Position numbers and translations under genes: made by a program
Shown here: positions 1,864 through 18,334 of the stretch, piece after piece
Position numbering within the stretch: the first letter of the stretch is position 1
Layout: each line of letters starts with the position of its first letter
From: a virus
Lineage: Duplodnaviria; Heunggongvirae; Uroviricota; Caudoviricetes
Direction: 5' to 3' (one strand)
Length of the DNA: 30,660 bases
IMG/VR virus record: IMGVR_UViG_2585427784_000002
The notes under the pieces: model-generated
What the model was told of the DNA's origin: nothing
Database searches by the model: none
Seen by the model: the letters and a program-made list of their open reading frames with translations, nothing else

Positions 1864-1953
1864 TCTATAGAAAATTGCGTAACGAAACTGCATTTCAGTA
1901 ATTGGTTGATGCAATACAAATATGGCCTTCTCACTGGGAAGGTCATTGCCGAC

Positions 1954-2580: not shown

Positions 2581-2851
2581 AATATATACCTGTATTTGGT
2601 CCTACGGTCTATAGCAGACCGTACAGGGATGCCATACAGGCAGGGCTATTCCTGGTCACTGTTGTCGGTATATACTGGTATCAGATTTTAGTACGGACAT
2701 ACTGATCTGATTACTACTCTTACTGGTGAATACAGGTAGTAAGAGTACACAATGCCATTATATAATACCTATCCAACATCTAAATTTGAGACGAAGGTAG
2801 CCCCAGCCTGTGATGGCTGTTAAAAAGTTACTCTGCAATTAGCTTCTGGAA

Positions 2852-3550
2852 TTAACCGATGATTCCGTTATTCCAGTGCCGCTTCACAGTCGATAAACTG
2901 ATACTCAATTTCTTTGCAATCTCAGCCTGAGTAAATCCACCTTTCTTAAGTATTGTGATATCACGTCGGTATTTGCTTCCCTCCTTTCGTCCTAATTTCT
3001 TCTTAACATGTCGATATCGGCTTTTAGTTGATTTCAGATTGTGAATGTCAATCGTATCCTGACGAGCAATCAAAAAAGACAAGCAACTTTCAGCAGAAGG
3101 CTCTATCCTTGAAGCTGGATGGTAGCTGTAGATAAATATTTCTTTTTGAAGGCAAAAAAATAAAATATTCTGTAAATCCTCCACAGTTCTGCCAAGACAG
3201 CTTAGATCTGGAATTACAAGCGTGTCCTGCCGGTTCATTTCATGATGAATCAATTGTCTGAGTAAACGTTGCTCTGAAACAACCTCTTTAATATCTACCC
3301 GCTCGATCACAACATGTTCAGATAGAATATTAAATTTTTGGCATATCTCAGCAAGTGAGTGATGATCTGTAATGCTTTCTTGCTGTTCGCTACTGCATAT
3401 GGTGTAAAAAAATGAACGCATCTGATGCACTCCGGTGTCATAAATTATTTTTTGATACCTGAATAATGTCATTTTGCATAAAAAACAACCAAAAATAGAG
3501 AGTGATTGCCAGCGATACTTTAACTGGTAAAGTAGTATTTTACCTCTCAT
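2852..3550 (-). CDS. yagL: Serine-recombinase (resolvase/invertase)-like DNA-binding protein with C-terminal HTH, probably catalytically degenerate; 232 aa
   Basis: Resolvase-like motifs (YTICSSEQQ in place of YARVSTxQQ; DLSCLGR; C-terminal HTH GFTQAEIAKKLSISLSTVKRH). The conserved Arg before the catalytic Ser is replaced. Length matches K-12 yagL. Confidence 0.7.
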   Translation of the reverse strand: MRGKILLYQLKYRWQSLSIFGCFLCKMTLFRYQKIIYDTGVHQMRSFFYTICSSEQQESITDHHSLAEICQKFNILSEHVVIERVDIKEVVSEQRLLRQLIHHEMNRQDTLVIPDLSCLGRTVEDLQNILFFCLQKEIFIYSYHPASRIEPSAESCLSFLIARQDTIDIHNLKSTKSRYRHVKKKLGRKEGSKYRRDITILKKGGFTQAEIAKKLSISLSTVKRHWNNGIIG

Positions 3551-3576
3551 AATTGTTTGTCCTTCTTTGTTACCTC

Positions 3577-4431
3577 TTAGGTTCTGCTCTCTTGTGAGTA
3601 TGGGTTTATAATGATGTCATCCGGTACATTAACACGGTTGGAAACATCTGTTTTGCGGAGCACTGGCAGCATAACCACCATTTCATTGACATGGTAAATA
3701 TCAATCCAACAAACAACCGGATAAGGCATAACAATCCCCTTTCTTCTAAGAACTTCATTTATCCCGAATATAATCAATTGGGATGTTGACAAGAGTAGAG
3801 CCTGCCCGGCATCAAAGTAATAACCCTCAAAGGTTGTTCTATGAATAAGAATAATGTTTGAATATCCTGAGACACTTTGATGCTTTACATCAAGATGTCT
3901 TTGATTGTAAATGTAAATGGCTTTTTCCATATCGTAATTTTCCCTTAGCGAGGATAGCCTTTCACGTATAACTGTTTTTTCATCTTTCCCCATGAATTCA
4001 TCATTAGCGTTCAGTTGAAAGTAATCTGCAATGGGGATTTTTAATGGACTCATGATGTTCGTTTTCCAGATTAACGAACAGTACTCTTCCAGAGTTACTT
4101 CTGTTTTACCTCGGCTTCGATTGATGCTTTCTTTTATAGAGAACTTTAACAGGTCATTTTTTATTTCATTTATTGACCAGTTATGACGATTGCATTTTTC
4201 TAATATAGGGATAGCCAAATCCACAACTTCCGCTATTACGGAAGAGTGAGATTTATTTGTTAGTCTGGCATAATGATCAATTACTCCTAATGAAGATTGA
4301 TTTTTGAACGTGACTGAGTGTTTTTTTATGGGAGTAGTCTGTACTACCTGTGACTCATTGTTTTTGCCTTGACAAGGTTTTTTTCCTGGTAGAACGCTGC
4401 TCATCTCAAAATTAGTAACACTATTAGACAT
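3577..4431 (-). CDS. yagM: Hypothetical protein, 284 aa (yagM-like by position and length)
   Basis: Long uninterrupted ORF in AT-rich DNA following the yagL-like gene; no recognisable catalytic motif. Symbol from recalled K-12 CP4-6 order and length. Confidence 0.6.
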   Translation of the reverse strand: MSNSVTNFEMSSVLPGKKPCQGKNNESQVVQTTPIKKHSVTFKNQSSLGVIDHYARLTNKSHSSVIAEVVDLAIPILEKCNRHNWSINEIKNDLLKFSIKESINRSRGKTEVTLEEYCSLIWKTNIMSPLKIPIADYFQLNANDEFMGKDEKTVIRERLSSLRENYDMEKAIYIYNQRHLDVKHQSVSGYSNIILIHRTTFEGYYFDAGQALLLSTSQLIIFGINEVLRRKGIVMPYPVVCWIDIYHVNEMVVMLPVLRKTDVSNRVNVPDDIIINPYSQESRT

Positions 4432-4549
4432 TTTTAAGGAAACCTCTTTGTTATCTCAATATAAAACTACTATCTGAAATTTCTCAGTGTTGCCCCATTT
4501 TTCTCGGGGCAACATCGCTATAAATCAATAAAATTAAATCTGTAATTTA

Positions 4550-4774
4550 TTACAGACTTTCTCGTACAGAAAATGTATCTATAAAATCGAGGACATCTTT
4601 ACGTAACCAGTAATGGCGGCCATTGATTTGTTTTGGGCGAGGTAGCCCCTCAGGCAATTTGTCCTGACAAAGCCATTTACGAATGGTTTGAGATTTGTAG
4701 CTAATGATTTTAGCTAACTCAGCTGTTGAAATGAGCTGTGATTGAGATGTATCCGGGAGTTTGAATGCGCTCAT
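4550..4774 (-). CDS. Small HTH DNA-binding protein, AlpA/excisionase-like (74 aa)
   Basis: Translation ...LISTAELAKIISYKSQTIRKWL...PRPKQINGRHYWLRKDVLDFI resembles AlpA/Xis-type HTH proteins; ATGA start/stop overlap with the upstream yagN-like gene at 4771-4774. Confidence 0.5.
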   Translation of the reverse strand: MSAFKLPDTSQSQLISTAELAKIISYKSQTIRKWLCQDKLPEGLPRPKQINGRHYWLRKDVLDFIDTFSVRESL

Positions 4775-5211
4775 TTTGCCACCTCAGTGATTGAGATATT
4801 GGCAAAGAAAGCTTTAAGCATTATTGAATTAGTAGGGGTAGTAATGAAGGCAGAAGGAAACGTTTCGGGCTCGGGGTCGGGGTCACTACCATCACCTGAA
4901 TCTGATGATAAGGCACTTTTAGCTGATTTAGCCGTACTGTGATGCGATCTGGATGCCTGATTTTTACATGACATCAGACGCGCGAGAAAGTTAGTAGCAT
5001 TTTGCATTCTTTGTTTAAGATGTAAAATTTTCAGTTTGGCGCATGCGACAGACTTGCGAAGAGCTGAGTATGTTCCTTTGAGATACTCGACAACCTCTTC
5101 CATGGACGCAGGATCGTTAAAGGATTGAGTTGTTTTACTTGAATTAATACACCAGCGAGCTCTGATAGCTGCCAGAGTGGGTTCTATGGATACAGTTGCT
5201 GTGGTTGCCAT
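4771..5211 (-). CDS. yagN: Hypothetical protein, 146 aa (yagN-like by position and length)
   Basis: ORF adjacent to integrase fragment, coupled to downstream small HTH gene; central Ser/Gly/Asp/Pro-rich linker (SGDGSDPDPEPE). Symbol from recalled K-12 order. Confidence 0.6.
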   Translation of the reverse strand: MATTATVSIEPTLAAIRARWCINSSKTTQSFNDPASMEEVVEYLKGTYSALRKSVACAKLKILHLKQRMQNATNFLARLMSCKNQASRSHHSTAKSAKSALSSDSGDGSDPDPEPETFPSAFITTPTNSIMLKAFFANISITEVAK

Positions 5212-5327
5212 TGGCTTATCTCCTGTGTAGTTGCTGTATCATTGACTAAACTGTGTATTACGATACATGAAAATCTATCTTGATCAATAGTTGATGATAT
5301 TTTGTAATATGTTGATTTTTAATGGAA

Positions 5328-5948
5328 TCAACGCATATCAACGTTGTTTTTTATGGTAATACCTGCTTCATTTAAGATCCATGTCTCAATTTTCTCGTGC
5401 CATTTTCGTAACAGATCTAACGGACGACGGCGATAGTGTTTTTCGGCAAGAGCGCTGGGTTTGTGTCCCATAATTTGAGCAACAATACCAGTGGGAACTT
5501 CAACCCACTCGGCCAAAGTACCAAAACTACGACGTAAACCGTGAAGGCTGATATGTGGTAACTCAGCCAGCACTAACGCTCTGTTGTGCGCTGAACGCGG
5601 CTCAATAATTTTGCCACTTTTACTGTTACTTCTGAAAACCCAACCCTCCTTGTTTACGTCAGAATTTGGGGATTGCGCTAGTACATTTAACAATTCAGAA
5701 ACATAAGGAGTGAGAGGGATGATACGTTCACCTTCGATCTTGTCTTTAATTCGCATGCTTGACCATTTGAAATCTACGTCTGACCAGCGAAGCGACGCAA
5801 TTTCTTCACGCCGAGCACCAGTGAGCAAAAGTACTTGGAGATAGGCCGATGCAATAGGATTATTGAGGCTACGCACGGCACTAAACCAGCTTTTTAGTTG
5901 TTCCTTTTGCAGGCAATCATCAGCTTTACTCGCTGACACGGGAACCAT
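5328..5948 (-). pseudogene. Tyrosine integrase, C-terminal catalytic domain only (N-terminal arm/core-binding region missing); probably remnant of the island integrase (intF-like)
   Basis: Translation contains box I Arg (LLLTGARREEIASLRW), HxLRR (HGLRRSFGT) and C-terminal Tyr region (GHKPSALAEKHYRRR); only 206 aa, and an in-frame stop sits immediately upstream of the Met. Confidence 0.75.
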
Positions 5949-6069
5949 TTTTCTTACGTTGTAATCTTGTGCCAGATCGCCAGGAATGATCCCTTGATAT
6001 TTTTTCTGATAATTACTCCATTTGATGAAAGCACGTAGTAGGCGATAAGCGTGAGCAGTGACGGTAGGT

Positions 6070-6393
6070 CTATTTTGCCTTTCTGTACTCAGCCACGCTG
6101 CTATGTAATCTGGGGTTAGCTCCGATACCAGCTCGTTGCTGCCAGACGATCCAACCGAGAGTCATATCCCATGCCATGTATTCGTTATCGCCGTTTTTTG
6201 CTCTCCGACGATCTACTAAGTCACCAAAACGCTTTTCCATGAATAATTCATAAGCTTCGCGTTCATCTGGTTCTACTTCCAGAGATAGGAGTGCGATTTC
6301 ATAAGCACGGCGCTCAATATCGTCTCGCACGTCAAGGCTGCTGATACGCTCTTTAATTTCTTTAATCAGTTCTTTGTCGGTAAAAGTGGTCAT
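6070..6393 (-). CDS. Hypothetical phage-remnant protein (107 aa)
   Basis: ORF coupled by ATGA overlap (6393) to the upstream DUF551-like gene; no family recognised. Confidence 0.45.
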   Translation of the reverse strand: MTTFTDKELIKEIKERISSLDVRDDIERRAYEIALLSLEVEPDEREAYELFMEKRFGDLVDRRRAKNGDNEYMAWDMTLGWIVWQQRAGIGANPRLHSSVAEYRKAK

Positions 6394-6755
6394 TATGCTC
6401 CAGCCTCCGGTGCTTTTGGCATTACTGCCCAGTGAGTGATATTGACGTTTTCAAGGTCCCCGACCTGAAATGTCCACTGCCATTCTCCGGTTTCTTTTTG
6501 TCCCCAGGTGTACCAGAGAGAACGCCAGCCAATTAGCCAGCCTTCTCCGTTAGCATCGAATAACAAAACACTTTCATTTGCTGGTGGCAGTTCAGTTGAC
6601 ACTGGTATTACTTTGTTTTCCTGTGCTGCACATTTAGCTTCAAGCGCATCGAATTTACGCACCAGGTATTCAGCATCCGTTTCATTCACTTTCAGATCTC
6701 GCGGTACACATTTCCCGCGAAGAAACCCTTCCATTTCGAAAACATTCATGCGCAT
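6393..6755 (-). CDS. Hypothetical lambdoid-phage protein, DUF551-like (120 aa)
   Basis: Trp-rich C-terminus (GEGWLIGWRSLWYTWGQKETGEWQW) typical of small lambdoid early-region proteins; overlapping start/stop with neighbours. Confidence 0.5.
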   Translation of the reverse strand: MRMNVFEMEGFLRGKCVPRDLKVNETDAEYLVRKFDALEAKCAAQENKVIPVSTELPPANESVLLFDANGEGWLIGWRSLWYTWGQKETGEWQWTFQVGDLENVNITHWAVMPKAPEAGA

Positions 6756-7309
6756 TTGCGTAACTCCGATAATTCGTTAAAGCGTTCCATAAACATCCCG
6801 TAGGCATGGCCTGGAGCCAGTGGAATCACGTTGAACATCTCTGTTGCCGGGATACCTTCCAGCACAGGCCAGAAAGAGCCATCATCAAGCCCGAGATCGC
6901 GGCGTTCGGTTGCCAGCATGATGAGATCGGCATATTTCACGGGGGTACTCATAACCGGGGGTAACCCGTATTTCTCACGGATTACGGCGTCTATTTTTTC
7001 TTCCATCCGTTTATAGTCAGGAAGAAGGCGTTTCAGTGGCGCCGGGATGTCCTGGCAATACGCTTCTGTTGCATCATGCATTAACGCTTCAAAAGCAAAT
7101 TCCTGCGGTACCAGTTGGCTGCAAAGCACCGCATGTTGGGCGACGCTGTAGAAATGTGAAAGATGTCCTGCAAAGCGACAGATATTTGAAAGAGAAACCG
7201 CGATATCGTTAATAACGATGTCGTCTTTATTTATCCTGTCATAATAAAAATGCTTCCCGGAAAAAGTTTTAATAAATGACATTTTGTTCTCCACGTATAT
7301 GCGCTGCAC
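6746..7309 (-). CDS. HD-domain phosphohydrolase (5'-deoxynucleotidase-like), about 178-187 aa; start may be the internal Met at 7282
   Basis: HD motif context (CRFAGHLSHFYSVAQHAV...LMHDATEAYCQDIP) consistent with HD superfamily metal-dependent phosphohydrolases common in lambdoid prophages. Confidence 0.65.
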   Translation of the reverse strand: MQRIYVENKMSFIKTFSGKHFYYDRINKDDIVINDIAVSLSNICRFAGHLSHFYSVAQHAVLCSQLVPQEFAFEALMHDATEAYCQDIPAPLKRLLPDYKRMEEKIDAVIREKYGLPPVMSTPVKYADLIMLATERRDLGLDDGSFWPVLEGIPATEMFNVIPLAPGHAYGMFMERFNELSELRKCA

Positions 7310-7375
7310 CGCGCTGAATTCTGGTAAAAGGAAGCCCTCACCATCCGGCGATTATTGAGTCAATTACGTTTCCAT

Positions 7376-7397
7376 AAATGCCCCCGCAGGGGCATTT
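7376..7397. terminator. GC-rich palindromic hairpin (AAATGCCCC-cgca-GGGGCATTT), candidate terminator for the minus-strand gene ending at 7410
   Basis: Perfect 9-bp inverted repeat with 4-nt loop, located in the gap between two convergently arranged gene ends. Confidence 0.45.
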
Positions 7398-7409
7398 GCA
7401 GTAATGAAA

Positions 7410-8072
7410 TCAGGCGGTGAAAGTACCAATAAAGGTTTCTACTTTGCTGTCCTTGAATTTCGCAACAAGCAGATCACGAAATTCGTTAGCCATTTCTTCC
7501 TGCACTGCTTCCAGCTGAATAATGCGCAGAACCAGTACAGGACGATCGCCAGTGATAATGCTGAGGCGTAATTTAAACGGACGTTCTTTCAGGCCTTCAA
7601 ACGGAACGCATTTAAATTCAAATGCCACAGGCATAATATCTTTGGTCTTCGCTTCGACAGACTCCATCAGGGAGCGTTTGCCGCTGAAGTCATTGTCTTC
7701 AAAATCAGCGGTCTGGTTTGCTTCAATCGTGATTTTACGGACTGCCGCAGCCGCTTTTGTTGCCTGAATGGCATCACCATTAGCATCAAAGCCCACAAGG
7801 TAGTCGGCCCAGTCTTCGATCCATTCTGCCAGTGACTTCTGGGAGTTACGCTCGCCGTTAACAGACAACAGAGCAGAGAACGGTGCTGTCTTTTTCAGTT
7901 TGAGAGTGGCAGTGTTATCTGCGTGACCTGGCTCATCAATAGTACCCAGGTTATCTGATTTTCCCCTGTTCCCACGTCCCGTTTTGCCGCTTCTCCCAAA
8001 CCAACGTTTATGAAGATGCAGAAATAACGAGCAAATGGCATCATTCCTGCTTTTGTCAGGGGGAGCTACCAT
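7410..8072 (-). CDS. Phage-associated hypothetical protein (possibly YfdQ/DUF2303-like), likely 5'-truncated or fused at the junction with the invertase stub
   Basis: Long ORF; C-terminal two-thirds look protein-like, N-terminal about 40 aa are low-complexity ([13 protein letters not shown]) and overlap the plus-strand pin stub, suggesting a deletion junction. Family assignment tentative. Confidence 0.45.
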
Positions 8073-8197
8073 GCTTATTGGCTATGTACGCGTATCAACA
8101 AATGACCAGAACACCGATCTACAACGTAATGCGTTGAGCTGTGCAGGATGCGAGCTGATTTTTGAAGACAAGATAAGCGGTACAAAGTCCGAAACCT
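8069..8197 (+). pseudogene. DNA invertase (Pin/Hin/Gin family) N-terminal stub, 42 codons then stop
   Basis: Translation [42 protein letters not shown] matches the conserved N-terminus of serine DNA invertases, including the catalytic-Ser context YVRVSTNDQ; a full-length invertase is about 190 aa. Confidence 0.8.
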
Positions 8198-8294
8198 AGG
8201 GCTGACACTGCTGTTCTTGTTGCAAATTAAAGGATTTAATAGTGAGTAGCGGCCTTACTAATGTAAAGCCGCTATAATCATTTTATTAATTGCA

Positions 8295-10244
8295 TTAATC
8301 GTGTTTTGGCCATACTTTCAATGCAATTTCCCCCAACTTTTTACCCCGCTCCAGGATTTCATCCTCATCCCATTTATCCTTAACTATAAGTGGAATGTTC
8401 AGTCGTAGATTGGTGTGGACGATGAGAGCATCACGTTTTTTCAGAAATACAGCATTCTGAACAGAACGGTTTACGCTAAGGTTAAGCAAAGTTAGATTTC
8501 CCAACGTAGCTATCGCTTGTTGCCGTTTCCTTACCAGTAGCTGTTCAGGGGTAAGATCGGTTCCAGACAGAACAATTTGGTTCAATACCGTAGCATCTGA
8601 ATTTGTCACCATATGACCATTTTCGAGAGGCCAACAGGAATACCAACTTTGAGGCATAAGATGATCGATATCGAGGTTAGAAAGATTTGGAACATCAGGC
8701 TTCTCTGTCTTCACTTGGCGACAAAGTTCTCTTTCAAGTTCCGTTAACATTGAGCGCATTTTCGGTGCGTCGAGCCTGCCAGGATAAAGTGGAGCATTGA
8801 TGCAAGCGTTGAGAAATTCTGAGTCCCCAGGCCAACGTGAGGCTTCGCCATTTAAGCTATTGAGGATATTACGTAACTCAACACTGGAAATTTCCGTTTT
8901 AGACAAGTGCCGCAATACATTCATAAATACATTGTTGTAATTCTTTGGCGTCAGGCCACATACGGCTCTTCGTACTACGTAGGAGACAAGATCATTATAC
9001 ATGGCTGCTTTCTCATCATCGGCGATGTTAGCTATCGAAATGAACAAAGCAAGCGGATAAAGTGTCGTCACATCATAGGCTGCGATGCGATGTCCAAAGT
9101 GTGAGATGGGGGTTGTGCCAAAACCACCAACCAATTCTTTATATTGTGATGCATATTGTTTGAGGCGCTTTACTTGCAGATCTGCTCGTTGTGAAGGCAA
9201 GTCCTTACTTACATAATCACGATACTCATTGTAAAGACGAGACAGATCGATTTCACGTTGCCTTTCTGATTGCAATGTCGCATGCACTAGCCACTCCATG
9301 CGTGGTTTATTAATACGACCACGACGTTGTCTTTCTGACCAGTACGTATCTTCAAAGATCTTCCACTCATTCTCATATAATTCAACAGCATTAATATTTT
9401 CATGTTCAGCGCACATAAAAATATAATTGCGAATAAGATCTGTGGCATGAAGTTCCGCACCTCTGCCATTTAATGTTTCAAAAATTATTTGAGCGTCATC
9501 TTCAGCCTCGAGAAATATGCTTACTAGTTTCAGATCCGTCAAGACAGCCTCAATTAATGCTACAGCATTTTCTCGTGGTGAGTGATTTTCTATTTTAATC
9601 CACTTTATAAAGGCTTCAGTAAAAAAACATAATGCTTCTAGTGATGGCGGGTGATTAAAATGCTTACGCAACGTACCATGCTGCGTGAAACTATCAGAGA
9701 ATACATTCCGGATATCGTCAATATTTTCAACATTAAAACTTTGAATAAAATGAGTTTGATCCCGAAAAGTTGGCCACAGTTTGAAGCGCTCTACTTCTTT
9801 ATTTCGCATTGTGTCTTCGTTTGAGTTTTTCAGGCAAGACGAAATGAGAGGCTCTAAGTTGGAAAGATCTGTCGCACGTAATGCTAATCGGATGGATGCC
9901 AGAACATATTGAAGAGTGGTCAATCGTTGCTGACCATCAATAATATGTATGGAATCTACACCTAATAATCCTTTTTTTGGTTGAGGTTCCAGTACCACTG
10001 CACCAAGGAAATGGGGAGTTGGTTTTGTACCCGAGAGCCGGGATTGTGCTTTCTCTAGGATATCCTCCAGTAGAGCTGACCATTGGTTTCGCTGAGTCCA
10101 TACATAGGCACGTTGATAGAATGGAACGCAGTATTGTCGGCGGTCTTGAAAAAGTTGTTGGACAGTTAGCGTCTCGGATTTCATGGTATACCTGTAAGCG
10201 ACATTGTACAAAAGTGAGGAGTTAATCTGATTTAGAACAATCAT
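8295..10244 (-). CDS. GmrSD-family type IV (modification-dependent) restriction endonuclease, fused DUF262 (ParB-like NTPase) + DUF1524 (His-Me/HNH-like nuclease); probable true start at 10184 (MKSETLTVQQLF...)
   Basis: N-terminal DUF262 signature ...IHIIDGQQRLTTLQY...; C-terminal DUF1524-type motif ...LDIDHLMPQSW...; single 629-649 aa polypeptide as in GmrSD/BrxU-like enzymes. Confidence 0.8.
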   Translation of the reverse strand: MIVLNQINSSLLYNVAYRYTMKSETLTVQQLFQDRRQYCVPFYQRAYVWTQRNQWSALLEDILEKAQSRLSGTKPTPHFLGAVVLEPQPKKGLLGVDSIHIIDGQQRLTTLQYVLASIRLALRATDLSNLEPLISSCLKNSNEDTMRNKEVERFKLWPTFRDQTHFIQSFNVENIDDIRNVFSDSFTQHGTLRKHFNHPPSLEALCFFTEAFIKWIKIENHSPRENAVALIEAVLTDLKLVSIFLEAEDDAQIIFETLNGRGAELHATDLIRNYIFMCAEHENINAVELYENEWKIFEDTYWSERQRRGRINKPRMEWLVHATLQSERQREIDLSRLYNEYRDYVSKDLPSQRADLQVKRLKQYASQYKELVGGFGTTPISHFGHRIAAYDVTTLYPLALFISIANIADDEKAAMYNDLVSYVVRRAVCGLTPKNYNNVFMNVLRHLSKTEISSVELRNILNSLNGEASRWPGDSEFLNACINAPLYPGRLDAPKMRSMLTELERELCRQVKTEKPDVPNLSNLDIDHLMPQSWYSCWPLENGHMVTNSDATVLNQIVLSGTDLTPEQLLVRKRQQAIATLGNLTLLNLSVNRSVQNAVFLKKRDALIVHTNLRLNIPLIVKDKWDEDEILERGKKLGEIALKVWPKHD

Positions 10245-10989
10245 TTTATGTTGCTATGATACAACGTATTTGTTACCGGTTAAGTAAAAAACGCGTCTGA
10301 ACGCTGACGTTTTAGGGCTTTACTAGTTATTCTTTCTTATCTCTTCATCATCCCATCGGCATCCTGTCGAGGTTGTTGACTTGTTGTTATTTATTTTGTT
10401 TAGGCGCTGTTTAATTATTATTGATGGGACTGGTGGTGAGAGGTGATTGAAACCGCAGACAGGTCGTATGCAAGACGTGCTGCGGTTGGCTGGTAAATGT
10501 TAGATAGTGCGAGTATTGAATGATTTCTAGCCGTTATTGATTTTACGTATTTTTGTATGAGAGGATTTGCATCTCCTGCCACCGACCCTCCATGACTTTA
10601 CGCCACTGTCTCTAGGGCTGCTATGTGCCAGGAGCAGCCATTGCTAAGTCCATCCTGTATTGTGCAGGTCAGCTCGTTTTTAAAGAGTCCGGCCACCATC
10701 TTACTGGTACAGACACCATATACTTTGTGACGGTCAGGCTACATATGCACAACTCAACTTATTCATCTATTTTTTGCTTTAGCATGTCAGTGTTGCTTTC
10801 TCGTCGGCGGGTGAGCGGTGACCTGACCTGTCGATAAAGGAACGTAGCACGTTTTATGCAACACCCGCATGCGGCAGAAAATTATTGCCGAACGTTTACC
10901 CCTGTCAACAAGCTTTACTTTCTGAGGCGCGCCAGCCCGCGAGGAAAACAATCTGAACATCAAACAATTAATGACACAAGAAATACGAT

Positions 10990-11016
10990 TAAAGATTTTT
11001 TTGTGCATGCCGATAG
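10990..11016 (+). promoter_or_regulatory. Near-consensus sigma-28 (FliA) promoter: TAAAGATT-N11-GCCGATAG
   Basis: Matches the FliA consensus TAAAGTTT-N11-GCCGATAA at 7 of 8 positions in each element with correct 11-nt spacer, about 25 bp upstream of the flxA-like start; AAGGAG Shine-Dalgarno at about 11028-11033. Confidence 0.6.
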
Positions 11017-11039
11017 TGCTTTTTTAAAAGGAGAAATCT

Positions 11040-11372
11040 ATGTCTGTCACAATTCAGGGAAATACCTCAACCGTTATTTCAAACAACTCCGCCCCGGAAG
11101 GAACATCAGAAATAGCCAAAATCACAAGACAAATTCAGGTGCTGACTGAAAAGCTTGGGAAAATCTCATCGGAAGAGGGGATGACGACACAGCAGAAAAA
11201 AGAAATGGCTGCATTGGTACAGAAGCAAATTGAAAGCCTCAGGGCTCAACTGGAGCAGTTGTTAAGGCAGCAGGCAGAGAAAAAGAATGAAGACGCGACA
11301 GTTCAGCCTGATAAAAAAGAAGAGAAAAAAGACGATACAAATACCGCTGGCACCATTGATATTTACGTCTAA
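11040..11372 (+). CDS. flxA: FlxA-like family protein (110 aa, coiled-coil, Q/E/K-rich)
   Basis: 110-aa product with strong RBS, sigma-28 promoter upstream and intrinsic terminator downstream; composition and length match the FliA-regulated FlxA family found in lambdoid prophages. Confidence 0.6.
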   Translation: MSVTIQGNTSTVISNNSAPEGTSEIAKITRQIQVLTEKLGKISSEEGMTTQQKKEMAALVQKQIESLRAQLEQLLRQQAEKKNEDATVQPDKKEEKKDDTNTAGTIDIYV

Positions 11373-11386
11373 GTGACAGCCGTATT

Positions 11387-11409
11387 GTGGCCCTCATCGG
11401 GCCACTTTT
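11387..11409 (+). terminator. Rho-independent terminator (GTGGCCC-tcatc-GGGCCAC followed by TTTT)
   Basis: Perfect 7-bp GC-rich stem, 5-nt loop, T-run, 15 bp after the flxA-like stop. Confidence 0.8.
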
Positions 11410-11645
11410 CGCCATCAGTCTTTTCTTTAAAGACATATTATCTTTGTATCATTTCTGATAGTTAACATTACAAGATATAAGTAATGGACGCACTCCCAAT
11501 TAGTCTATTTAAATCGCCACGAGTTTAACTGACAACCCATGATCAATTATGAATTGCAACTATTTCTGTAGTCACTTTTGTGGGGACAGTCCACAAAACT
11601 GCCAACTTCCGCTTCTTGCTCATAGCGGACCTTACAACCACCTGA

Positions 11646-11891
11646 TTGGTCCGCTCCGTGTCAGGAGCGGATAATGCCTGCGTGGAAAGCTTCTTTCATT
11701 CGCTGAAAGTGGAATGTATCCATGGAGAACACTTTATCAGCCGGGAAATAATGCGGGCAACGGTGTTTAATTATATCGAATGTGATTACAATCGGTGGCG
11801 GCGGCACAGTTGGTGTGGCGGCCTCAGTCCGGAACAATTTGAAAACCAGAACCTCGCTTAGGCCTGTGTCCATATTACGTGGGTAGGATCA
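11646..11891 (+). mobile_element. IS3 remnant: last about 70 codons of the OrfB transposase plus right terminal inverted repeat (ends ...TGTGTCCATATTACGTGGGTAGGATCA at 11891)
   Basis: Translation ...[63 protein letters not shown] is the IS3 transposase C-terminus; the sequence after the stop matches the IS3 right end. No upstream IS3 sequence, so a truncated copy. Confidence 0.8.
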
Positions 11892-12159
11892 CACAGGCAA
11901 CATAGCCATCGTGATCAATCAACATACCATTAGTAAACCAGCCTAAATGATTCCCATTGAATCCATAAACATCAAACTCATTGTTCTGGTTATGTTTAAG
12001 GTAGGCGCTTGGTTCACCCTCCCAACTATATAAAGTCAACTCGTCATCAAGTGAAATATAAACGACGGCGTTGCCTTGATTATCATATAGATCTAGGTCA
12101 TTACTCGCAGTAACACAAGCTGAGAAAAGAAACATAACTAGCACGAGTGATTTTTTCAT
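11875..12159 (-). CDS. Small secreted protein, probable lipoprotein (signal peptide with FSAC lipobox-like motif), 94 aa; its stop lies inside the IS3 terminal repeat, so possibly C-terminally truncated
   Basis: N-terminus MKKSLVLVMFLFSAC is a classic signal peptide/lipobox; ORF ends within the IS3 right end. Confidence 0.5.
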   Translation of the reverse strand: MKKSLVLVMFLFSACVTASNDLDLYDNQGNAVVYISLDDELTLYSWEGEPSAYLKHNQNNEFDVYGFNGNHLGWFTNGMLIDHDGYVACVILPT

Positions 12160-12495
12160 AACTTCTCAAGTTTCTTAGAAAGGAAAAGTTCGAACATTCT
12201 ATCAAAATTATGAGGACACTAACTTCCGATTTTCGCTCATAACAGACATTCACTACAGTTATGGTAGAAGGTATGCATGCTGGGTGGGGAAAGTATGAAG
12301 GAAAAGAAGACTGCTGCGCCGTTTGTCGTCACGTTTATCTTCATTGGCTATGCAAGTCGTAATACAAGGTGGGACAAAACTGAGACACATAAGGCCTCGC
12401 AATGGCTTGCAAGGCTTTACATGTTTTGATGTGGTGGGACGTGTGAGCGCAGTGTTGATGGGGTAATGCTTTGAATTAGAAGCGGATTCTTATAA

Positions 12496-12540
12496 TTCGT
12501 AATGCGAAGGTCGTAGGTTCGACTCCTATTATCGGCACCA
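12496..12540 (+). tRNA. 3' portion (anticodon loop to CCA end, about 45 nt) of a tRNA-Thr(CGU) (thrW/ptwF-like); not a complete tRNA; functions as attL
   Basis: TTCGTAATGCGAAGGTCGTAGGTTCGACTCCTATTATCGGCACCA matches the 3' half of E. coli tRNA-Thr including T-arm GGTTCGACTCC and CCA end; upstream sequence does not encode the D-arm or acceptor 5' strand. Confidence 0.8.
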
Positions 12541-12542
12541 TT
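12524..12542 (+). repeat. attL core, TCCTATTATCGGCACCATT, direct repeat of attR at 30108-30125
   Basis: Same 19-bp sequence (one G missing at attR) occurs at 30108-30125, bracketing the integrase-to-iteron element. Confidence 0.75.
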
Positions 12543-12653
12543 CAAACATCTCCCCAAGTCTACTAAAGTCTTTCAAAACCCCTTATAATCCACGTATTAA
12601 AGCCCCGTTCGTCTTTTGACGTCTACTAAAGTCCCTCAAAATCTACGGTCAGA

Positions 12654-12704
12654 TGGGGGTACTTATGGGGGTATTTGCTGTTCGGTTTAGTGGAGGTACC
12701 CCCA
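12654..12704 (+). promoter_or_regulatory. Cluster of GGGGGTA(C/T) motifs (two direct, one inverted) just upstream of int; candidate integrase arm-type binding sites
   Basis: GGGGGTACTTATGGGGGTAT at 12654-12673 and GGTACCCCC at about 12693-12701; a near-identical GGGGGTACTTTTGGGGGTAT occurs at 30026-30045 near attR. Confidence 0.5.
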
Positions 12705-12705
12705 A

Positions 12706-13920
12706 GTGAAACTCAATGCCCGTCAAATAGACACAGCCAAGCCAAAAGAGAAGGCTTACAAGCTGGCCGATGGTGGCGGTTTGTATCTCTTGGTAAAACC
12801 TAATGGAGGTAAATACTGGCGACTTAAATATCGTGTAGCTGGTAAAGAGAAGCTATTGGCACTAGGTGTGTATCCTGAGGTTACTCTAGCCGATGCTCGG
12901 GCAAAACGTGAAGATGCGAAAAGAGGTATCGCTGGTGGTATCGATCCGATGGAAGCGAAACGAGAGGAAAAGATTGCCCGGGAAACGCAGTTAAACAACA
13001 CCTTCAAAGATATTGCCCTTGAGTGGCACAGCAGCAAATTAAAAAAATGGTCTGCTGGTTATGCTTCAGACATCCTCGAAGCCTTCAACAAAGATGTGTT
13101 CCCTTACATTGGCAAAAAACCAATCGCCGAAATCAAACCACTTGAACTTCTGAATGTGCTGCGGCGCATCGAGGGGCGCGGTGCGACAGAAAAAGCCAAA
13201 AAAGTGAGGCAGCGGTGCGGGGAAGTTTTCCGCTATGCAATAGTCACTGGTCGCGCAGAGTATAACCCTGCACCAGACCTTACTAGCGCGATGCAAGGCC
13301 ATGAATCTAATCATTACCCTTTCCTTACGACCAAAGAATTACCTGATTTTTTCAAGGCATTGTCCAGTTACTCAGGAAGCGCATTGGTTGTTATGGCGGC
13401 TCGTCTACTGATTATCACCGGCTTGCGAACTGGCGAACTACGTGGCGCATTATGGGATGAAATTGATTTCAACAAGGCTATATGGGAGATACCCGCTTCA
13501 CGTATGAAAATGCGGCGGCCTCATATTGTGCCATTGTCTGAGCAGGCTCTTTCGCTTATTGGGAAGATTAGAGAAATAACAGGCAATTACCCTCTTATGT
13601 TTCCCGGGCGCAATGATCCAAGGAAAACAATGAGTGAGGCCAGCATAAACCAAGTGTTTAAGCGCATTGGCTACGCTGGACGTGTAACTGGTCATGGGTT
13701 CCGACACACTATGAGCACGATTTTGCATGAGCAGGGCTATAACACCGCGTGGATAGAAACGCAGCTCGCTCACGTTGATAAGAACTCAATTCGTGGCACA
13801 TACAACCATGCGCAATATCTGGATGGACGGCGGGAGATGCTTCAATGGTATGCCGACTATATGGATTCTCTCGAGCATGGCGGAAATGTGGTGCATATGG
13901 TGTTTGAAAAACACGCATGA
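12706..13920 (+). CDS. P4-type tyrosine integrase (404 aa), tRNA-adjacent
   Basis: N-terminal DUF4102-like region (MKLNARQIDTAKPKEKAYKLADGGGLYLLVKPNGGKYWRLKYR), box I Arg (IITGLRTGELRGALWDEID), HGFRHT box II, C-terminal Tyr region; immediately downstream of the tRNA 3' fragment. Confidence 0.92.
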   Translation: MKLNARQIDTAKPKEKAYKLADGGGLYLLVKPNGGKYWRLKYRVAGKEKLLALGVYPEVTLADARAKREDAKRGIAGGIDPMEAKREEKIARETQLNNTFKDIALEWHSSKLKKWSAGYASDILEAFNKDVFPYIGKKPIAEIKPLELLNVLRRIEGRGATEKAKKVRQRCGEVFRYAIVTGRAEYNPAPDLTSAMQGHESNHYPFLTTKELPDFFKALSSYSGSALVVMAARLLIITGLRTGELRGALWDEIDFNKAIWEIPASRMKMRRPHIVPLSEQALSLIGKIREITGNYPLMFPGRNDPRKTMSEASINQVFKRIGYAGRVTGHGFRHTMSTILHEQGYNTAWIETQLAHVDKNSIRGTYNHAQYLDGRREMLQWYADYMDSLEHGGNVVHMVFEKHA

Positions 13921-14347
13921 AACAACTGGACAAGTATACAGAGGTTTACTAAAGTATAGGGGAGTAGATTGATAAAAACTCACAGAGGATTGCTATTTAA
14001 CAGTTAGCCCTGGAGAAGGGCAATCGCTCTTTTATAAACGAAGGTGTATTGAGCCTTCTACGCTGCTGAAAAGCGGAATGTTCTTTAACAGGCTTTGGCG
14101 CTGACAAAGCGCAATTGTTCTTTAACACTACTGGATGTCACGCCTAATAGCGTGATCCTGCCGAAATGCAGGGTAGCTCTACCCTTGTGGAGCAAACAAA
14201 CCAAAACAATCTGACTATCTTTTATAAAAGACCGCAATATGTTTTTCATATTGTGGTCTTTGGCGTATTCGACATTTGACGCAAATAAAACTCTCGCCAT
14301 TCGTTGCAGGAGGGGGTTATTGCGTCATTAGTACAGGATATTAATAA

Positions 14348-14551
14348 ATGGCTAATTACAATTCATTAATTCGTCTCTCTGAAGTTCAAAGGCGAACTGG
14401 TTATAGCAAAGCATGGATTTATCGTCTTATTAGTCAGGGGAGGTTCCCTAAACAGGTAAAAATTGGAAGTCGGGCAATTGCTTTTGTTGAGTCTGAAATA
14501 GATGAATGGATTGAGAAGTGTATATTAGAATCTAGAGACGAGGTGGCCTGA
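14348..14551 (+). CDS. AlpA-family phage transcriptional regulator / excisionase-like (67 aa)
   Basis: MANYNSLIRLSEVQRRTGYSKAWIYRLISQGRFPKQVKIGSRAIAFVESEIDEWI is the AlpA/P4 Vis-type HTH pattern; ATGA overlap with the next gene. Confidence 0.85.
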   Translation: MANYNSLIRLSEVQRRTGYSKAWIYRLISQGRFPKQVKIGSRAIAFVESEIDEWIEKCILESRDEVA

Positions 14552-14982
14552 TGGAAAAGAAAAACCGCCCATTACAGGCGGCTAATTCAGATATTCGCGT
14601 ATCTGACATTACGCCCCTTACAAAATCCCTTCAAGCACCAAAGCGCACACCGAAAAAGCATCGTGCCCGAGTCTATATGCTGCGTACTGGTATAGAGGGA
14701 TGGACAGAAAATGACATTCTTCGCTACTGCCGTCTGTCTTCTGGTCGTAACTATGCAACAGAGTTAGAACGCCAGCTTGGAATCACTCTGGAGCGTATCG
14801 ACGAAAAGAATCCTGATGGTATCGGAACACACCTTCGCTACCGTTTCTCCTGCCGTGGTGATGTTCTGAAAGTGATCACTCATGTTAACTATCTTGCGAG
14901 CATAAATGATCACAACGGACTTTCTCAGCAGGAAATTACCGACATTCTGAAACTCTACCCGGACGCGTTTAACGCCGCCTAA
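14551..14982 (+). CDS. Hypothetical protein (143 aa)
   Basis: ORF translationally coupled to alpA-like gene; no family recognised. Confidence 0.55.
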   Translation: MEKKNRPLQAANSDIRVSDITPLTKSLQAPKRTPKKHRARVYMLRTGIEGWTENDILRYCRLSSGRNYATELERQLGITLERIDEKNPDGIGTHLRYRFSCRGDVLKVITHVNYLASINDHNGLSQQEITDILKLYPDAFNAA

Positions 14983-14994
14983 CGGAGACTGAAA

Positions 14995-15828
14995 ATGAAC
15001 ATCGAAAAAAGCAGATTAATTTCTGAGGCCGCCCCTCATCTGAACGCCTCTCTGGGCACAATTAACGGTAATGAATTTGCCGCAATTGTCCCGGTTATTC
15101 CTGGTCACATCGGTGGGCGTGAAACCAATATTGTTAGCGCAAAAGCGTTACACAAAGCGTTGGGCGTGGGAAAAGACTTCTCTACATGGATCACTGATCG
15201 CATCTCTGAATATGACTTCACCATTGGGCACGATTACTCAGTCCATAAAACAATTTCCCCAAATTTGGGGAAAAGCCCGAATGGCGCGGCTTACAGCAAG
15301 ATTAAGCAGTCTGGCAGACCCGGCAAAGACTATCTGTTAAGTGTCGGAATGGCGAAAGAACTGGCAATGATCGAACGCAATGATCAGGGTCGCGCTATCC
15401 GTCGTTATTTCATCCAGTGCGAGGAAGAATTACAGCGTAGCGTGCCTGAAATCGCCGCCCGCTATCGTCGCCAGCTAAAAGCCCGTATCAGTGCCGCAAA
15501 CAACTTTAAGCCAATGTGCGATGCGCTGAATATGGCCCGTGCCGAGCAGGGGAAAACGACGCAGCAACACCACTACACAAATGAGAGCAATATGATTTCT
15601 CGTATCGTTCTTGGAGGGCTAACTGCTAAGCAGTGGGCGCGGATAAATGGCTATTCTGGCGAACCTCGCGACCATATGAACGCAGAACAGCTTGAGCACC
15701 TCTCATATCTCGAAAGCACCAATATCACGTTAATTGATATGGGCATGGAATATGAGCAGCGCAAAGGAGAACTCACCCGCCTGTCGCAACGCTGGCTCGC
15801 CAAGCGTCTGGAGGCGGTCCATGTTTAA
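14995..15828 (+). CDS. Phage antirepressor/regulatory protein, Rha/AntA/Bro-N-like N-terminal domain (277 aa)
   Basis: N-terminal segment ...NIVSAKALHKALGVGKDFSTWITDRISEYDFTIGHDYSV... matches the phage regulatory (Rha/antirepressor) domain pattern. Confidence 0.6.
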   Translation: MNIEKSRLISEAAPHLNASLGTINGNEFAAIVPVIPGHIGGRETNIVSAKALHKALGVGKDFSTWITDRISEYDFTIGHDYSVHKTISPNLGKSPNGAAYSKIKQSGRPGKDYLLSVGMAKELAMIERNDQGRAIRRYFIQCEEELQRSVPEIAARYRRQLKARISAANNFKPMCDALNMARAEQGKTTQQHHYTNESNMISRIVLGGLTAKQWARINGYSGEPRDHMNAEQLEHLSYLESTNITLIDMGMEYEQRKGELTRLSQRWLAKRLEAVHV

Positions 15829-18324: not shown

Positions 18325-18334
18325 GGATGGATCC

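What the first reader, a model, noticed from the sequence alone, without database searches (positions are those of the whole stretch)
8069..10244. GmrSD-like type IV restriction enzyme sitting next to a truncated pin invertase stub
Seen in sequence: a single 629-649 aa ORF with DUF262 signature (IIDGQQRLTTL) and C-terminal DUF1524/His-Me motif (DIDHLMPQS), flanked on one side by a 42-codon Pin-type invertase N-terminal remnant and on the other by an about 800-bp AT-rich, ORF-poor spacer. Established knowledge: in the e14 prophage of E. coli K-12, pin lies adjacent to mcrA, another modification-dependent restriction enzyme. Inference: this looks like the same prophage-remnant slot with a different type IV nuclease swapped in, which would make the pin-adjacent position a defence-gene exchange site.
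Basis: partly seen in the sequence, partly recalled or inferred. Interest (0 to 1): 0.6.

Follow-up and report, generated by a model that had tools for sequence, protein, structure and literature searches.

The report
Known GmrSD nuclease in prophage remnant
The gene is an intact copy of GmrSD, an already characterised E. coli enzyme that cuts the sugar-modified DNA of T4-like phages. It sits in a decayed prophage at the spot next to the tail-fibre invertase gene, where related prophages carry other anti-phage genes, so the find is real but ordinary.

Summary
Window 8295-10184 (-) encodes a 629-aa protein with GmrSD_N and GmrSD_C domains. It is collinear with the characterised enzymes Eco94GmrSD/EcoCT596GmrSD (94.3% identical) and UTI89 GmrSD (96.5%), and the mutagenesis-defined catalytic residues D507, H508 and N522 are intact. 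Window 8071-8199 (+) is a 42-codon stub of the e14-type invertase gene pinE.

The pin stub and gmrSD form one ancestral cassette. Its junction is present in 301 of 5426 complete E. coli genomes, which is nearly every genome that carries this gene, and it occurs in at least four prophage backbones. He et al. 2015 already placed this gene just downstream of the tail-fibre genes of an SfII-like prophage.

In the window the prophage is a 6.4-kb wreck beside CP4-6. It has lost its integrase, its structural genes and its invertase, yet gmrSD is intact.

Of 12 other pin loci, six carry a recognised defence gene next to pin (McrA, Olokun, PD-T4-3 three times, Ppl), three carry nothing, and three carry other or unknown cargo. 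This is one more case of the known class of phage defence hotspots.

Novelty is low. The open points are the phage range and IPI* sensitivity of this allele.

The parts
6124..7953 (-). Early-region remnant of the prophage: yfdT' (6070-6393), a phage protein (6393-6755), yfdR 5'-deoxynucleotidase (6746-7309) and an N-terminally truncated yfdQ (7410-8072 ORF, DUF2303).
   Evidence: 97% identical to L003 17327-19156 and to L001. Pfam domains; RefSeq names. Compared with L003, the prophage integrase, an HTH gene and the 5' 600 nt of the neighbouring intF are deleted at 6124-6127.
7947..7953 (.). Deletion junction joining yfdQ' directly to the last piece of the tail-fibre invertible segment. All the prophage DNA that lies between these two points in intact relatives, including every virion structural gene, is missing.
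   Evidence: The blast pieces abut and overlap by 7 nt here. No complete E. coli genome out of 5426 spans this junction.
7989..8016 (+). Single surviving invertase crossover (pix-type) site, GCTTCTCCCAAACCAA..., just upstream of the pin stub.
   Evidence: 15 of 16 matches to the e14 P-segment crossover repeat CCTTCTCCCAAACCAA quoted in PMC12529663. There is only one copy in the window. It lies inside the block that is 94% identical to e14.
8071..8199 (+). Truncated pin (serine invertase) gene: 42 codons and a stop. It keeps the catalytic-serine region (VRVSTNDQ) but lacks the rest of the catalytic domain and the DNA-binding domain.
   Evidence: Pfam Resolvase E 9e-09 over profile positions 2-47 of 145. 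40/41 identical to PinE 1-41. Homology to pinE genes stops at 8194-8205. RefSeq annotates it as 'recombinase family protein, missing C-terminus' in all relatives.
8200..8294 (.). 95-bp gap between the pin stub and the gmrSD stop codon (35.8% G+C). It contains an inverted repeat, AGCGGCCTTAC / GTAAAGCCGCT, at about 8248-8275 that could act as a terminator hairpin.
   Evidence: Read directly from the sequence; G+C. The consensus terminator scan did not flag it, so the role is inferred.
8295..10184 (-). gmrSD: a 629-aa single-chain type IV modification-dependent restriction endonuclease. The N-terminal part is a DUF262/ParB-like NTPase domain with DGQQR at residue 83. The C-terminal part is a DUF1524 His-Me finger nuclease with D507-H508 and N522.
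   Evidence: Pfam. PADLOC mREase_IV PDLC03655, 1440.7 bits over the full length. 94.3% identical to Eco94/CT596 and 96.5% to UTI89 GmrSD. The exact protein occurs on 523 contigs. The gene is in 306 of 5426 genomes. dN/dS between allele groups is 0.12-0.16.
10185..10525 (-). Upstream region that travels with gmrSD in every prophage backbone examined. It holds a promoter-like site, TTAACC-16-TATCAT, at 10283-10256, which is 72 nt upstream of the ATG at 10184.
   Evidence: Shared homology with L004, L006 and L007 extends to 10525-10647. Promoter scan, which is a consensus match only (9 of 12 positions).
10450..10640 (.). Dispersed, unannotated repeat of about 100-190 nt at the right-hand edge of the gmrSD cassette.
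   Evidence: 1-9 places per genome in 5394 of 5426 E. coli genomes, at 80-90% identity. One K-12 copy lies at the right end of Qin, just past pinQ-ydfK-ynfT. Another copy is at L002 23567-23653.
10621..10836 (+). ydfV pseudogene fragment, missing its N-terminus.
   Evidence: Mapped from the RefSeq annotation of L001 20525-20740 (offset 9904) within a 99.8% identical block.
11040..11372 (+). flxA-like gene (110 aa), further cargo of the prophage end.
   Evidence: Pfam FlxA E 1.2e-14. No PADLOC match.
11646..11861 (+). IS3-family transposase C-terminal fragment.
   Evidence: Pfam rve_2 E 2.9e-22. Homology to L001 and L002 is interrupted over 11674-11891.
11875..12159 (-). 4-fold beta-flower protein gene, shortened to 94 aa (143 aa in relatives). 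It is the last gene before the prophage end at about 12550.
   Evidence: Pfam Bflower E 1.3e-19. RefSeq gives 432 nt in L001 and L002. No PADLOC match.
12706..13920 (+). P4-type tyrosine integrase that opens the next, separate integrated element. It marks the outer boundary of the remnant.
   Evidence: Pfam Arm-DNA-bind_3, Phage_int_M and Phage_integrase. Neighbours in L001 and in the window are antirepressor, Ash and P4-family primase genes.

Best explanation
The ORF is a functional allele of the prototype prophage-borne GmrSD type IV restriction endonuclease.

How the enzyme works (known for the family, inferred here). The N-terminal DUF262 (ParB-like) domain binds an NTP or dNTP, which stimulates the enzyme. 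The C-terminal DUF1524 His-Me finger (D507-H508, N522) cuts DNA that carries 5-hydroxymethylcytosine or glucosyl-hydroxymethylcytosine. The cell is thereby protected from T-even phages, unless the phage injects a matching internal-protein inhibitor such as IPI*.

How the gene got here (shown by comparison). It sits on a cassette of about 2.3-2.5 kb. In one ancestral event the cassette replaced the 3' three quarters of a pin invertase gene at the tail-fibre end of a prophage. Since then it has moved with the adjoining tail-fibre/pin sequences among several prophage backbones. The likely route is homologous recombination through the conserved pix/pin 5' sequence on one side and a dispersed prophage-end repeat on the other; this step is inferred.

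What happened in the window (shown by comparison). The carrier prophage has since lost its integrase, all virion genes and the invertible segment through deletions. What remains is an immobile 6.4-kb remnant that still holds an intact gmrSD.
For: Domains and motifs.

Collinearity with experimentally characterised enzymes: 94.3% and 96.5% identity, with D507, H508 and N522, whose single alanine mutants abolished cleavage, conserved. E271, E273 and E278, which were tested only as double mutants, are conserved too (PMC4437046).

Selection and spread: dN/dS 0.12-0.16 between allele groups, and the identical protein on 523 contigs.

One shared junction: it is present in 301 of 5426 genomes, against 306 that carry the gene.

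Several backbones: an SfII-like myovirus at the thrW/pao site (L002) and at ssrA (UTI89, L004), another myovirus (L006) and a lambdoid siphovirus (L007).

Right boundary: it falls inside or at the edge of the dispersed repeat.

Deletions: defined against L001 and L003 and unique to this window.
Against: No activity data exist for this allele.

It has T280 where Eco94, CT596 and UTI89 have K280, and the E278A/K280A double mutant of Eco94 was severely impaired (PMC4437046 supplement). T280 is, however, shared by at least two allele groups.

The closest characterised relative, the UTI89 enzyme, was inactive when purified, although the UTI89 strain restricts some T-even phages.

The promoter call is only a 9-of-12 consensus match.

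The recombination route for cassette spread is inferred from boundary positions and has not been shown.
Confidence: 0.88

Rival explanations
1. The gene is a decaying relic. It has been carried along passively in a dead prophage and no longer gives any phage resistance, either because it is not expressed or because it is inactivated by substitutions such as K280T.
For: The host element is heavily deleted. T280 replaces a residue whose double mutant with E278 was nearly dead. The purified UTI89 enzyme, 96.5% identical, was inactive in vitro. The UTI89 prophage could not be induced.
Against: The reading frame is intact over 1890 nt inside a remnant where neighbouring genes are broken. The protein is identical to that of an apparently complete prophage (YF-1) and occurs on 523 contigs. 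dN/dS is 0.12-0.16. All single-residue catalytic positions are kept. A second, independent deletion derivative (L001) also retains the gene.
Confidence: 0.1
2. The DUF262-DUF1524 protein works as a component of a larger multi-gene system. It would act like BrxU inside BREX, like SspE in the Ssp phosphorothioate system, or like the two-gene GmrS1/GmrSD2 pair of ECOR17, rather than as a stand-alone enzyme.
For: PADLOC also gives weaker matches to SspE and to the Orf5 and HEC-06 models. Multi-gene GmrSD variants exist in E. coli (PMC12373910).
Against: The best PADLOC match, at 1440 bits, is the stand-alone mREase_IV model. The neighbours are a pin stub, a ydfV fragment, flxA and a beta-flower gene, none with a PADLOC match. 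The neighbours beyond the cassette differ between backbones. Eco94GmrSD alone restricts phage and cleaves DNA (PMC4437046).
Confidence: 0.02
3. The pin adjacency says nothing about a defence slot. It is one accidental illegitimate recombination that hitch-hiked with a successful tail-fibre module, and the variety seen next to pin elsewhere is just ordinary prophage-end (moron) variability without enrichment for defence.
For: One shared junction accounts for essentially all copies. Rac/Qin-type pin loci carry cold-shock genes rather than defence genes. Three sampled loci are empty, and two carry only proteins with no Pfam or PADLOC match. The sample of 12 is small and has no control.
Against: Six of the 12 sampled non-gmrSD pin loci have a recognised defence gene immediately next to pin, of four unrelated kinds. 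These include three different contents in the same SfII-like backbone at the same chromosomal site. gmrSD-bearing ends often stack further defence genes, such as retron Ec67 or PD-T4-3 plus an REase-domain protein.
Confidence: 0.25

Closest known systems
Eco94GmrSD / EcoCT596GmrSD (prototype single-chain GmrSD type IV restriction enzyme; He et al. 2015, PMC4437046)
   Same: Both are 629 aa and collinear without gaps, 94.3% identical. Both have DGQQR, D507-H508-N522 and E271/E273/E278. Both are borne on a prophage immediately downstream of the tail-fibre genes.
   Different: There are 36 substitutions, 26 of them in the first 186 residues, including K280T. The carrier here is a deleted remnant. 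Sensitivity to T4 IPI* and phage range are untested for this allele.
UTI89 GmrSD (UTI89_C2960, WP_000834402)
   Same: This is the closest characterised relative, 96.5% identical in protein and 96.7% in DNA. It has the identical pin-stub junction.
   Different: There are 22 substitutions. UTI89 carries the gene in an apparently complete SfII-like prophage at ssrA, followed by PD-T4-3 and an REase-domain gene. The UT enzyme is reported to be insensitive to IPI* and was inactive when purified.
BrxU (GmrSD-family enzyme inside a BREX island; PMC8565348)
   Same: It has the same two-domain architecture and NTP-stimulated cleavage of modified cytosine DNA.
   Different: It is only distantly related in sequence: the PDB sequence search at E 0.01 returned a single chain, 9jfl_B, deposited as 'DUF262 domain-containing protein', at E 1e-07. 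BrxU is plasmid- and BREX-associated and also accepts 5mC. No BREX genes are present here.
e14 pinE-mcrA arrangement of E. coli K-12
   Same: A type IV restriction gene lies between a Pin-type invertase gene and the prophage right end. The pix site and the pin 5' end are 94% identical in DNA.
   Different: McrA is an unrelated HNH enzyme specific for 5mC and 5hmC. In e14 pinE is intact and mcrA is co-oriented with it, and e14 is integrated in icd. Here pin is cut to 42 codons, the nuclease is on the opposite strand, and the element lies beside CP4-6.
Phage and satellite defence hotspots (Rousset et al. 2022), including the P2 Z/fun hotspot next to the tail-fibre genes, where invertases are often seen (iLund4u preprint, 10.1101/2024.10.15.618418)
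   Same: Conserved flanks (the tail-fibre module and the prophage end) enclose interchangeable anti-phage cargo. Ppl, a P2-hotspot system, also turns up next to pin.
   Different: The carriers are e14-type elements, SfII-like prophages, another myovirus type and lambdoid prophages rather than P2. I found no paper that names this particular interval as a hotspot.

Membership tests
[quoted passage not shown] | N-terminal DUF262 / GmrSD_N (ParB-like NTPase) domain with the DGQQR motif | tested here: met
   PF03235 at E 6.9e-34, covering the full profile 1-199. DGQQR is at residue 83.
[quoted passage not shown] | C-terminal DUF1524 / GmrSD_C His-Me finger nuclease with DHxxP and a downstream Asn | tested here: met
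   PF07510 at E 5.1e-20, profile positions 1-137 of 138. DIDHLMPQS is at 505-513. D507, H508 and N522 are present.
[quoted passage not shown] | Full-length similarity to an experimentally characterised member | tested here: met
   Gap-free 629-aa alignment, 94.3% identical to Eco94/CT596 and 96.5% to UTI89. PADLOC mREase_IV scores 1440.7 bits.
[quoted passage not shown] | NTP-stimulated cleavage of hmC or glc-hmC DNA and no cleavage of unmodified DNA | not testable with these tools
   This needs biochemistry. It has been shown for Eco94GmrSD only (PMC4437046).
[quoted passage not shown] | Restriction of T-even phages in vivo, modulated by injected internal proteins (IPI*) | not testable with these tools
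   This needs plaque assays. The related CT596, Eco94 and UTI89 alleles differ in this respect.
Pin/Gin/Hin/Cin serine DNA invertases | Complete catalytic domain plus C-terminal helix-turn-helix DNA-binding domain (about 184 aa) | tested here: not met
   Only 42 codons remain. Pfam Resolvase covers profile positions 2-47 of 145. The alignment to PinE ends at residue 41. The catalytic-serine motif is present, but the protein cannot be functional.
e14 cryptic prophage | Integration in icd, with the e14 gene set (lit, intE ... ymfQ, stfP, pinE, mcrA) | tested here: not met
   The window's flanks are CP4-6 genes (yagJ to intF) on one side and a P4-type integrase on the other. The early genes are of the yfdT/yfdR/yfdQ type. 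Only 205 nt (pix plus the pin 5' end) match e14.
BREX-embedded BrxU or Ssp-associated SspE | Location inside a BREX (pglX, pglZ, brxC ...) or sspABCD gene cluster | tested here: not met
   No such genes lie within the remnant or the window. The PADLOC SspE matches cover only the N-terminal domain, at E 1e-9 to 1e-16.
Phage-encoded defence hotspot (conserved flanks, interchangeable cargo) | The same flanking genes enclose different, unrelated gene sets in related elements | tested here: met
   The SfII-like backbone at the thrW/pao site carries, next to pin, gmrSD (L002), PD-T4-3 (L011), Ppl (L013) or Olokun (L009). e14-type elements occur with mcrA (L005) or with nothing (L015).
Phage-encoded defence hotspot (conserved flanks, interchangeable cargo) | Statistical enrichment of defence genes relative to other accessory regions | tested here: inconclusive
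   Six of 12 sampled non-gmrSD pin loci have a PADLOC-recognised defence gene adjacent to pin. There was no control interval, and the sample was small and hand-picked.

The most novel reading that the evidence does not exclude
The interval between the Pin-type tail-fibre invertase and the prophage end may be a general defence hotspot that has not yet been catalogued. It would be shared by e14-type elements, SfII-like prophages, another myovirus type and lambdoid E. coli prophages. Its uncharacterised occupants would then include new anti-phage systems. Candidates are the ParA-family gene plus two hypotheticals in L007, the 215-aa protein in L016, the three hypotheticals in L017, and the flxA and beta-flower genes in this window. 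In addition, the window's GmrSD allele group (T280, UTI89-like N-terminus, CT596-like C-terminus) might have its own phage range and inhibitor sensitivity, distinct from both characterised alleles.
Probability: 0.35. Interest if true: 0.45.

Novelty: already known. Interest (0 to 1): 0.2.

Why it matters
For the enzyme, it matters little. GmrSD of E. coli prophages has been studied since 2007. This allele family is in REBASE-derived defence models and in RefSeq, and its position after the tail-fibre genes has been published.

Two modest points remain.

First, the remnant shows a defence gene outliving its prophage. Two independent deletion derivatives keep gmrSD while losing integrase, virion genes and invertase. 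This fits the idea that hosts domesticate prophage defence cargo.

Second, the pin-proximal prophage end is a convenient, easily anchored interval for mining defence genes. Roughly 1600 of the 5426 complete E. coli genomes have a pin 5' end to anchor on. In a dozen loci that interval yielded McrA, Olokun, PD-T4-3 and Ppl, beside GmrSD and retron Ec67 in the gmrSD-bearing loci, plus several unknowns.

Tried and rejected
- tRNA scan of the window for the attachment site: no tRNA found. The element lies between CP4-6 and a P4-like element rather than directly at thrW.
- NCBIfam scan: no family for the nuclease.
- PDB sequence search: only a distant DUF262 protein, 9jfl, at E 1e-07. No structure prediction was run, because 94-96% identity to characterised enzymes already settles membership.
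- Rfam scan of 7300-12800: only a sub-threshold archaeal snoRNA hit inside gmrSD, which I dismissed as chance. It gave no identity for the dispersed repeat.
- Repeat search for terminal direct or inverted repeats around the cassette that would indicate transposition: only short chance-level matches. A transposon-like origin is therefore not supported.
- Search of 50,697 phage records for the cassette: only pin 5' ends matched and gmrSD did not. The one 'phage' record inspected includes host genes.
- Test for continued inversion of the tail-fibre segment in trans despite the pin truncation: 6 of 6 UTI89-type loci have the same orientation. There is no sign of inversion, but the strains are related, so the evidence is weak.
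- The 649-aa start at 10244: rejected in favour of 10184. There is no Shine-Dalgarno sequence before 10244, which lies 5-10 nt from the predicted transcript start, and all annotated and expressed homologues are 629 aa.
- Literature search for a named pin-adjacent hotspot: only general statements were found.
Full report
**1. What is in the sequence**

The minus-strand ORF ending at 8295 is 649 aa from the first ATG (10244) and 629 aa from the ATG at 10184. Pfam finds GmrSD_N (PF03235, E 6.9e-34, whole profile) and GmrSD_C (PF07510, E 5.1e-20). The PADLOC model mREase_IV PDLC03655 aligns positions 1-629 of 629 to residues 21-649 at 1440.7 bits. That score means the model was in effect built from this protein family.

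The 629-aa start is the better one. It is the RefSeq call in all relatives and the length of the expressed Eco94GmrSD. The only promoter-like site (TTAACC-16-TATCAT, 10283-10256) would start transcription a few bases from the upstream ATG, which has no ribosome-binding site.

On the plus strand, 8071-8199 is a 42-codon ORF. It matches the first third of the Pfam Resolvase profile and is 40/41 identical to residues 1-41 of e14 PinE.

**2. It is GmrSD itself, not just GmrSD-like**

He et al. 2015 (PMC4437046) characterised Eco94GmrSD, a 629-aa enzyme. It shows NTP-stimulated cleavage of hmC and glc-hmC DNA and restricts T4 delta-ip1 more than 10^6-fold. The D507A, H508A and N522A mutants are inactive. 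Their supplementary alignment gives the Eco94, CT596 and UTI89 sequences.

The window protein aligns to all three without gaps. It is 94.3% identical to Eco94 and CT596 and 96.5% identical to UTI89. D507, H508, N522, E271, E273 and E278 are conserved, but residue 280 is Thr instead of Lys. The E278A/K280A double mutant of Eco94 was badly impaired. T280 is, however, shared by at least two allele groups.

The exact protein is a RefSeq MULTISPECIES entry seen on 523 contigs. The gene is in 306 of 5426 complete E. coli genomes, in three identity bands: at least 99%, about 96.7% (UTI89 type) and about 93%. dN/dS between groups is 0.12-0.16, so the protein is under purifying selection. Most of the differences from Eco94 lie in the first 186 residues, where the window resembles UTI89.

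CT596 is inhibited by T4 IPI*, and Eco94, which restricts T4 lacking ip1 far more strongly than wild type, behaves the same way; UTI89 is reported to be insensitive. The inhibitor sensitivity of this allele therefore cannot be predicted.

**3. The pin stub and gmrSD are one cassette of single origin**

A 361-nt probe across the junction (8060-8420) is covered at 80% or more in 301 genomes, essentially every genome that has the gene. About 1300 further genomes match only the pin part, and that homology ends at window 8194-8205.

The same stub, annotated 'recombinase family protein, missing C-terminus', precedes gmrSD in four settings:
- an apparently complete SfII-like myovirus prophage at the thrW/pao site (YF-1);
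- an SfII-like prophage at ssrA (UTI89);
- a different myovirus (TUM17668);
- a lambdoid siphovirus with gpJ and lom (strain 32-4).

Shared homology runs from 7953-7990, in the end of the tail-fibre invertible segment, to 10525-10647. The right edge falls within or at the end of a dispersed repeat of 100-190 nt. That repeat is present in 1-9 places in 5394 of 5426 genomes. One K-12 copy sits at the right end of Qin, just beyond pinQ-ydfK-ynfT.

No terminal repeats suggesting transposition were found. My inference is that the cassette spreads between prophages by homologous recombination through these conserved flanks.

The cassette is absent from 50,697 deposited phage genomes. In six of six UTI89-type loci the invertible segment has the same orientation. 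This is consistent with a dead invertase, although those strains are related.

**4. The setting in this window**

- Positions 1-6127 are the right end of CP4-6 (yagJ to intF).
- At 6124-6127 a deletion, judged against LD39-1, removed the 5' 600 nt of intF, the neighbouring prophage's integrase and an HTH gene.
- Positions 6124-7953 keep yfdT', a phage gene, yfdR and a truncated yfdQ.
- At 7947-7953 a second deletion joins yfdQ' to the last 90 nt or so of the tail-fibre segment, leaving one pix crossover site (7989-8016). It matches 15 of 16 positions of the e14 site quoted in PMC12529663.
- The pin stub follows, then gmrSD, a ydfV fragment, flxA, an IS3 fragment and a shortened beta-flower gene. 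Beyond them, after about 12550, begins a P4-type integrase element.

No complete genome has the yfdQ'/tail-fibre junction. A different deletion derivative, S1-INA-02-B, which carries an IS1 insertion, also keeps gmrSD. The remnant cannot excise, invert or make virions, and the nuclease gene is the one long intact ORF left in it.

It consists of the gmrSD upstream region, the dispersed repeat and the ydfV fragment.

**5. The exchange-slot idea**

In e14, pinE is followed by mcrA and then attR. Window 7990-8194 is 94% identical to e14 from the end of stfE through nt 124 of pinE, so the positional analogy is genuine even though the element is not e14.

I sampled 12 pin loci without gmrSD, taken from a spread of pinE matches plus Qin.

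| Strain | Element or site | Content next to pin |
|---|---|---|
| K-12 | e14 | McrA |
| strain 41 | SfII-like, thrW region | Olokun OloA/OloB (E 6e-111, 3e-207) |
| O157:H7 Wll001 | not determined | PD-T4-3 GIY-YIG (E 2e-140) |
| XJ55 | SfII-like, thrW/pao site | PD-T4-3 homologue, frameshifted (RefSeq LEM-3-like GIY-YIG) |
| STEC309 | SfII-like | PD-T4-3 homologue (RefSeq LEM-3-like GIY-YIG) |
| S163-2 | SfII-like, thrW/pao site | Ppl (E 2e-157) |
| APEC-O117H42 | myovirus | nothing |
| HS-01 | e14-type, at icd | nothing |
| 2017.15.01CC | P2-like | nothing; tail sheath gene follows |
| K-12 (NEB10-beta) | Qin | cold-shock-type genes ydfK and ynfT |
| 2011C-4251 | myovirus | one protein, no Pfam or PADLOC match |
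| 042 | lambdoid, at ssrA | three proteins, no match (Pfam run on two of them) |

gmrSD-bearing ends often stack more defence genes: retron Ec67 type I-C in TUM17668, and PD-T4-3 plus a DpnII/MboI-like REase-domain protein in UTI89.

So the same backbone at the same chromosomal site carries gmrSD, PD-T4-3, Ppl or Olokun next to pin. That is the behaviour of a defence hotspot. The sample is small and uncontrolled, so enrichment is not proven.

**6. Relation to what is known**

- Phage-encoded defence hotspots are an established concept (Rousset et al. 2022, cited).
- A preprint notes invertases and defence-like cargo in the P2 Z/fun hotspot beside the tail-fibre genes.
- A 2025 paper remarks that recombinases are often next to defence genes.

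I found no paper naming the pin-to-attR interval of e14-type, SfII-like or lambdoid prophages as a hotspot. It would in any case be a further member of a known kind.

**7. Verdict**

- Observation: confirmed.
- Interpretation: supported, with caveats. The element is not e14. The junction is a single old event rather than a fresh swap. The gene's location downstream of the tail fibres was already published.
- Novelty: already known.
- Interest: low (0.2).
- Most novel reading not excluded: this interval is a productive, uncatalogued hotspot holding new systems, and this allele group has its own inhibitor specificity (probability about 0.35).

Noticed in passing
window 10450-10640 (also L002 23567-23653; L012 2501-2603): An unannotated dispersed repeat of about 100-190 nt, 80-90% identical between copies. 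It occurs in 1-9 places per genome in 5394 of 5426 E. coli genomes, mostly in intergenic DNA. One K-12 copy lies at the right end of the Qin prophage. Rfam gives it no identity. The gmrSD cassette's right boundary coincides with it.
   Followed up: partly
window 7947-7953: The deletion junction fusing truncated yfdQ to the tail-fibre segment is found in none of 5426 complete E. coli genomes. This remnant configuration is therefore private to the source strain or a rare lineage.
   Followed up: yes
window 6124-6127: A second deletion removed the 5' 600 nt of CP4-6 intF together with the neighbouring prophage's integrase and an HTH gene. This fuses two prophage remnants and leaves both without a working integrase.
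   Followed up: partly
window residue 280 of GmrSD (codon at about 9345-9347): Thr replaces the Lys280 of Eco94, CT596 and UTI89. The E278A/K280A double mutant of Eco94 was nearly inactive. T280 is shared by the window, YF-1, 32-4 and the 93% allele of TUM17668.
   Followed up: partly
L004 9001-14095 (UTI89) and L020-L024: The UTI89-type prophage end carries three nuclease-type defence genes in a row: GmrSD, PD-T4-3 (GIY-YIG) and a 262-aa protein with a DpnII/MboI REase domain. A broken dinI-like gene lies between the first two.
   Followed up: partly
L007 9124-11025; L016 5635-6282; L017 5668-7392: Uncharacterised cargo occupies the same pin-proximal slot: a ParA-family ATPase with two hypothetical proteins, a 215-aa protein, and a set of three hypotheticals. 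Apart from the ParA ATPase domains, and a marginal PADLOC match (E 1.9e-06 over 40 residues) for the ParA protein, none has a Pfam or PADLOC match (the 70-aa L017 protein was not run against Pfam). They are candidates for unknown defence functions.
   Followed up: no
window 12706-21783 and 22546-27204: A P4-like block (integrase, Ash-family protein, and a zinc-ribbon/Toprim/DUF927 primase of 919 aa) is followed directly by P22-type DNA-ejection genes (DUF2824, gp7, and a gp20-like injectosome translocase). This is an odd juxtaposition that also occurs in TUM17668 (L006).
   Followed up: no
window 1-606 and 30108-30660: Both ends of the window match the IS1 copy of L001 (99.3% and 96.8% identity). 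The whole 30-kb stretch is therefore bracketed by IS1 sequences.
   Followed up: no
L004, L020-L024 (about 6400-8760 in L004 coordinates): In six of six UTI89-type loci the invertible tail-fibre segment is in the same orientation. This is consistent with loss of inversion after the pin truncation. The strains are related, so the evidence is weak.
   Followed up: partly
L015 5001-5709 (strain HS-01): An e14-type element at icd has pinE running straight into the icd' attachment duplication with no mcrA. This is an 'empty' version of the K-12 pinE-mcrA slot.
   Followed up: no
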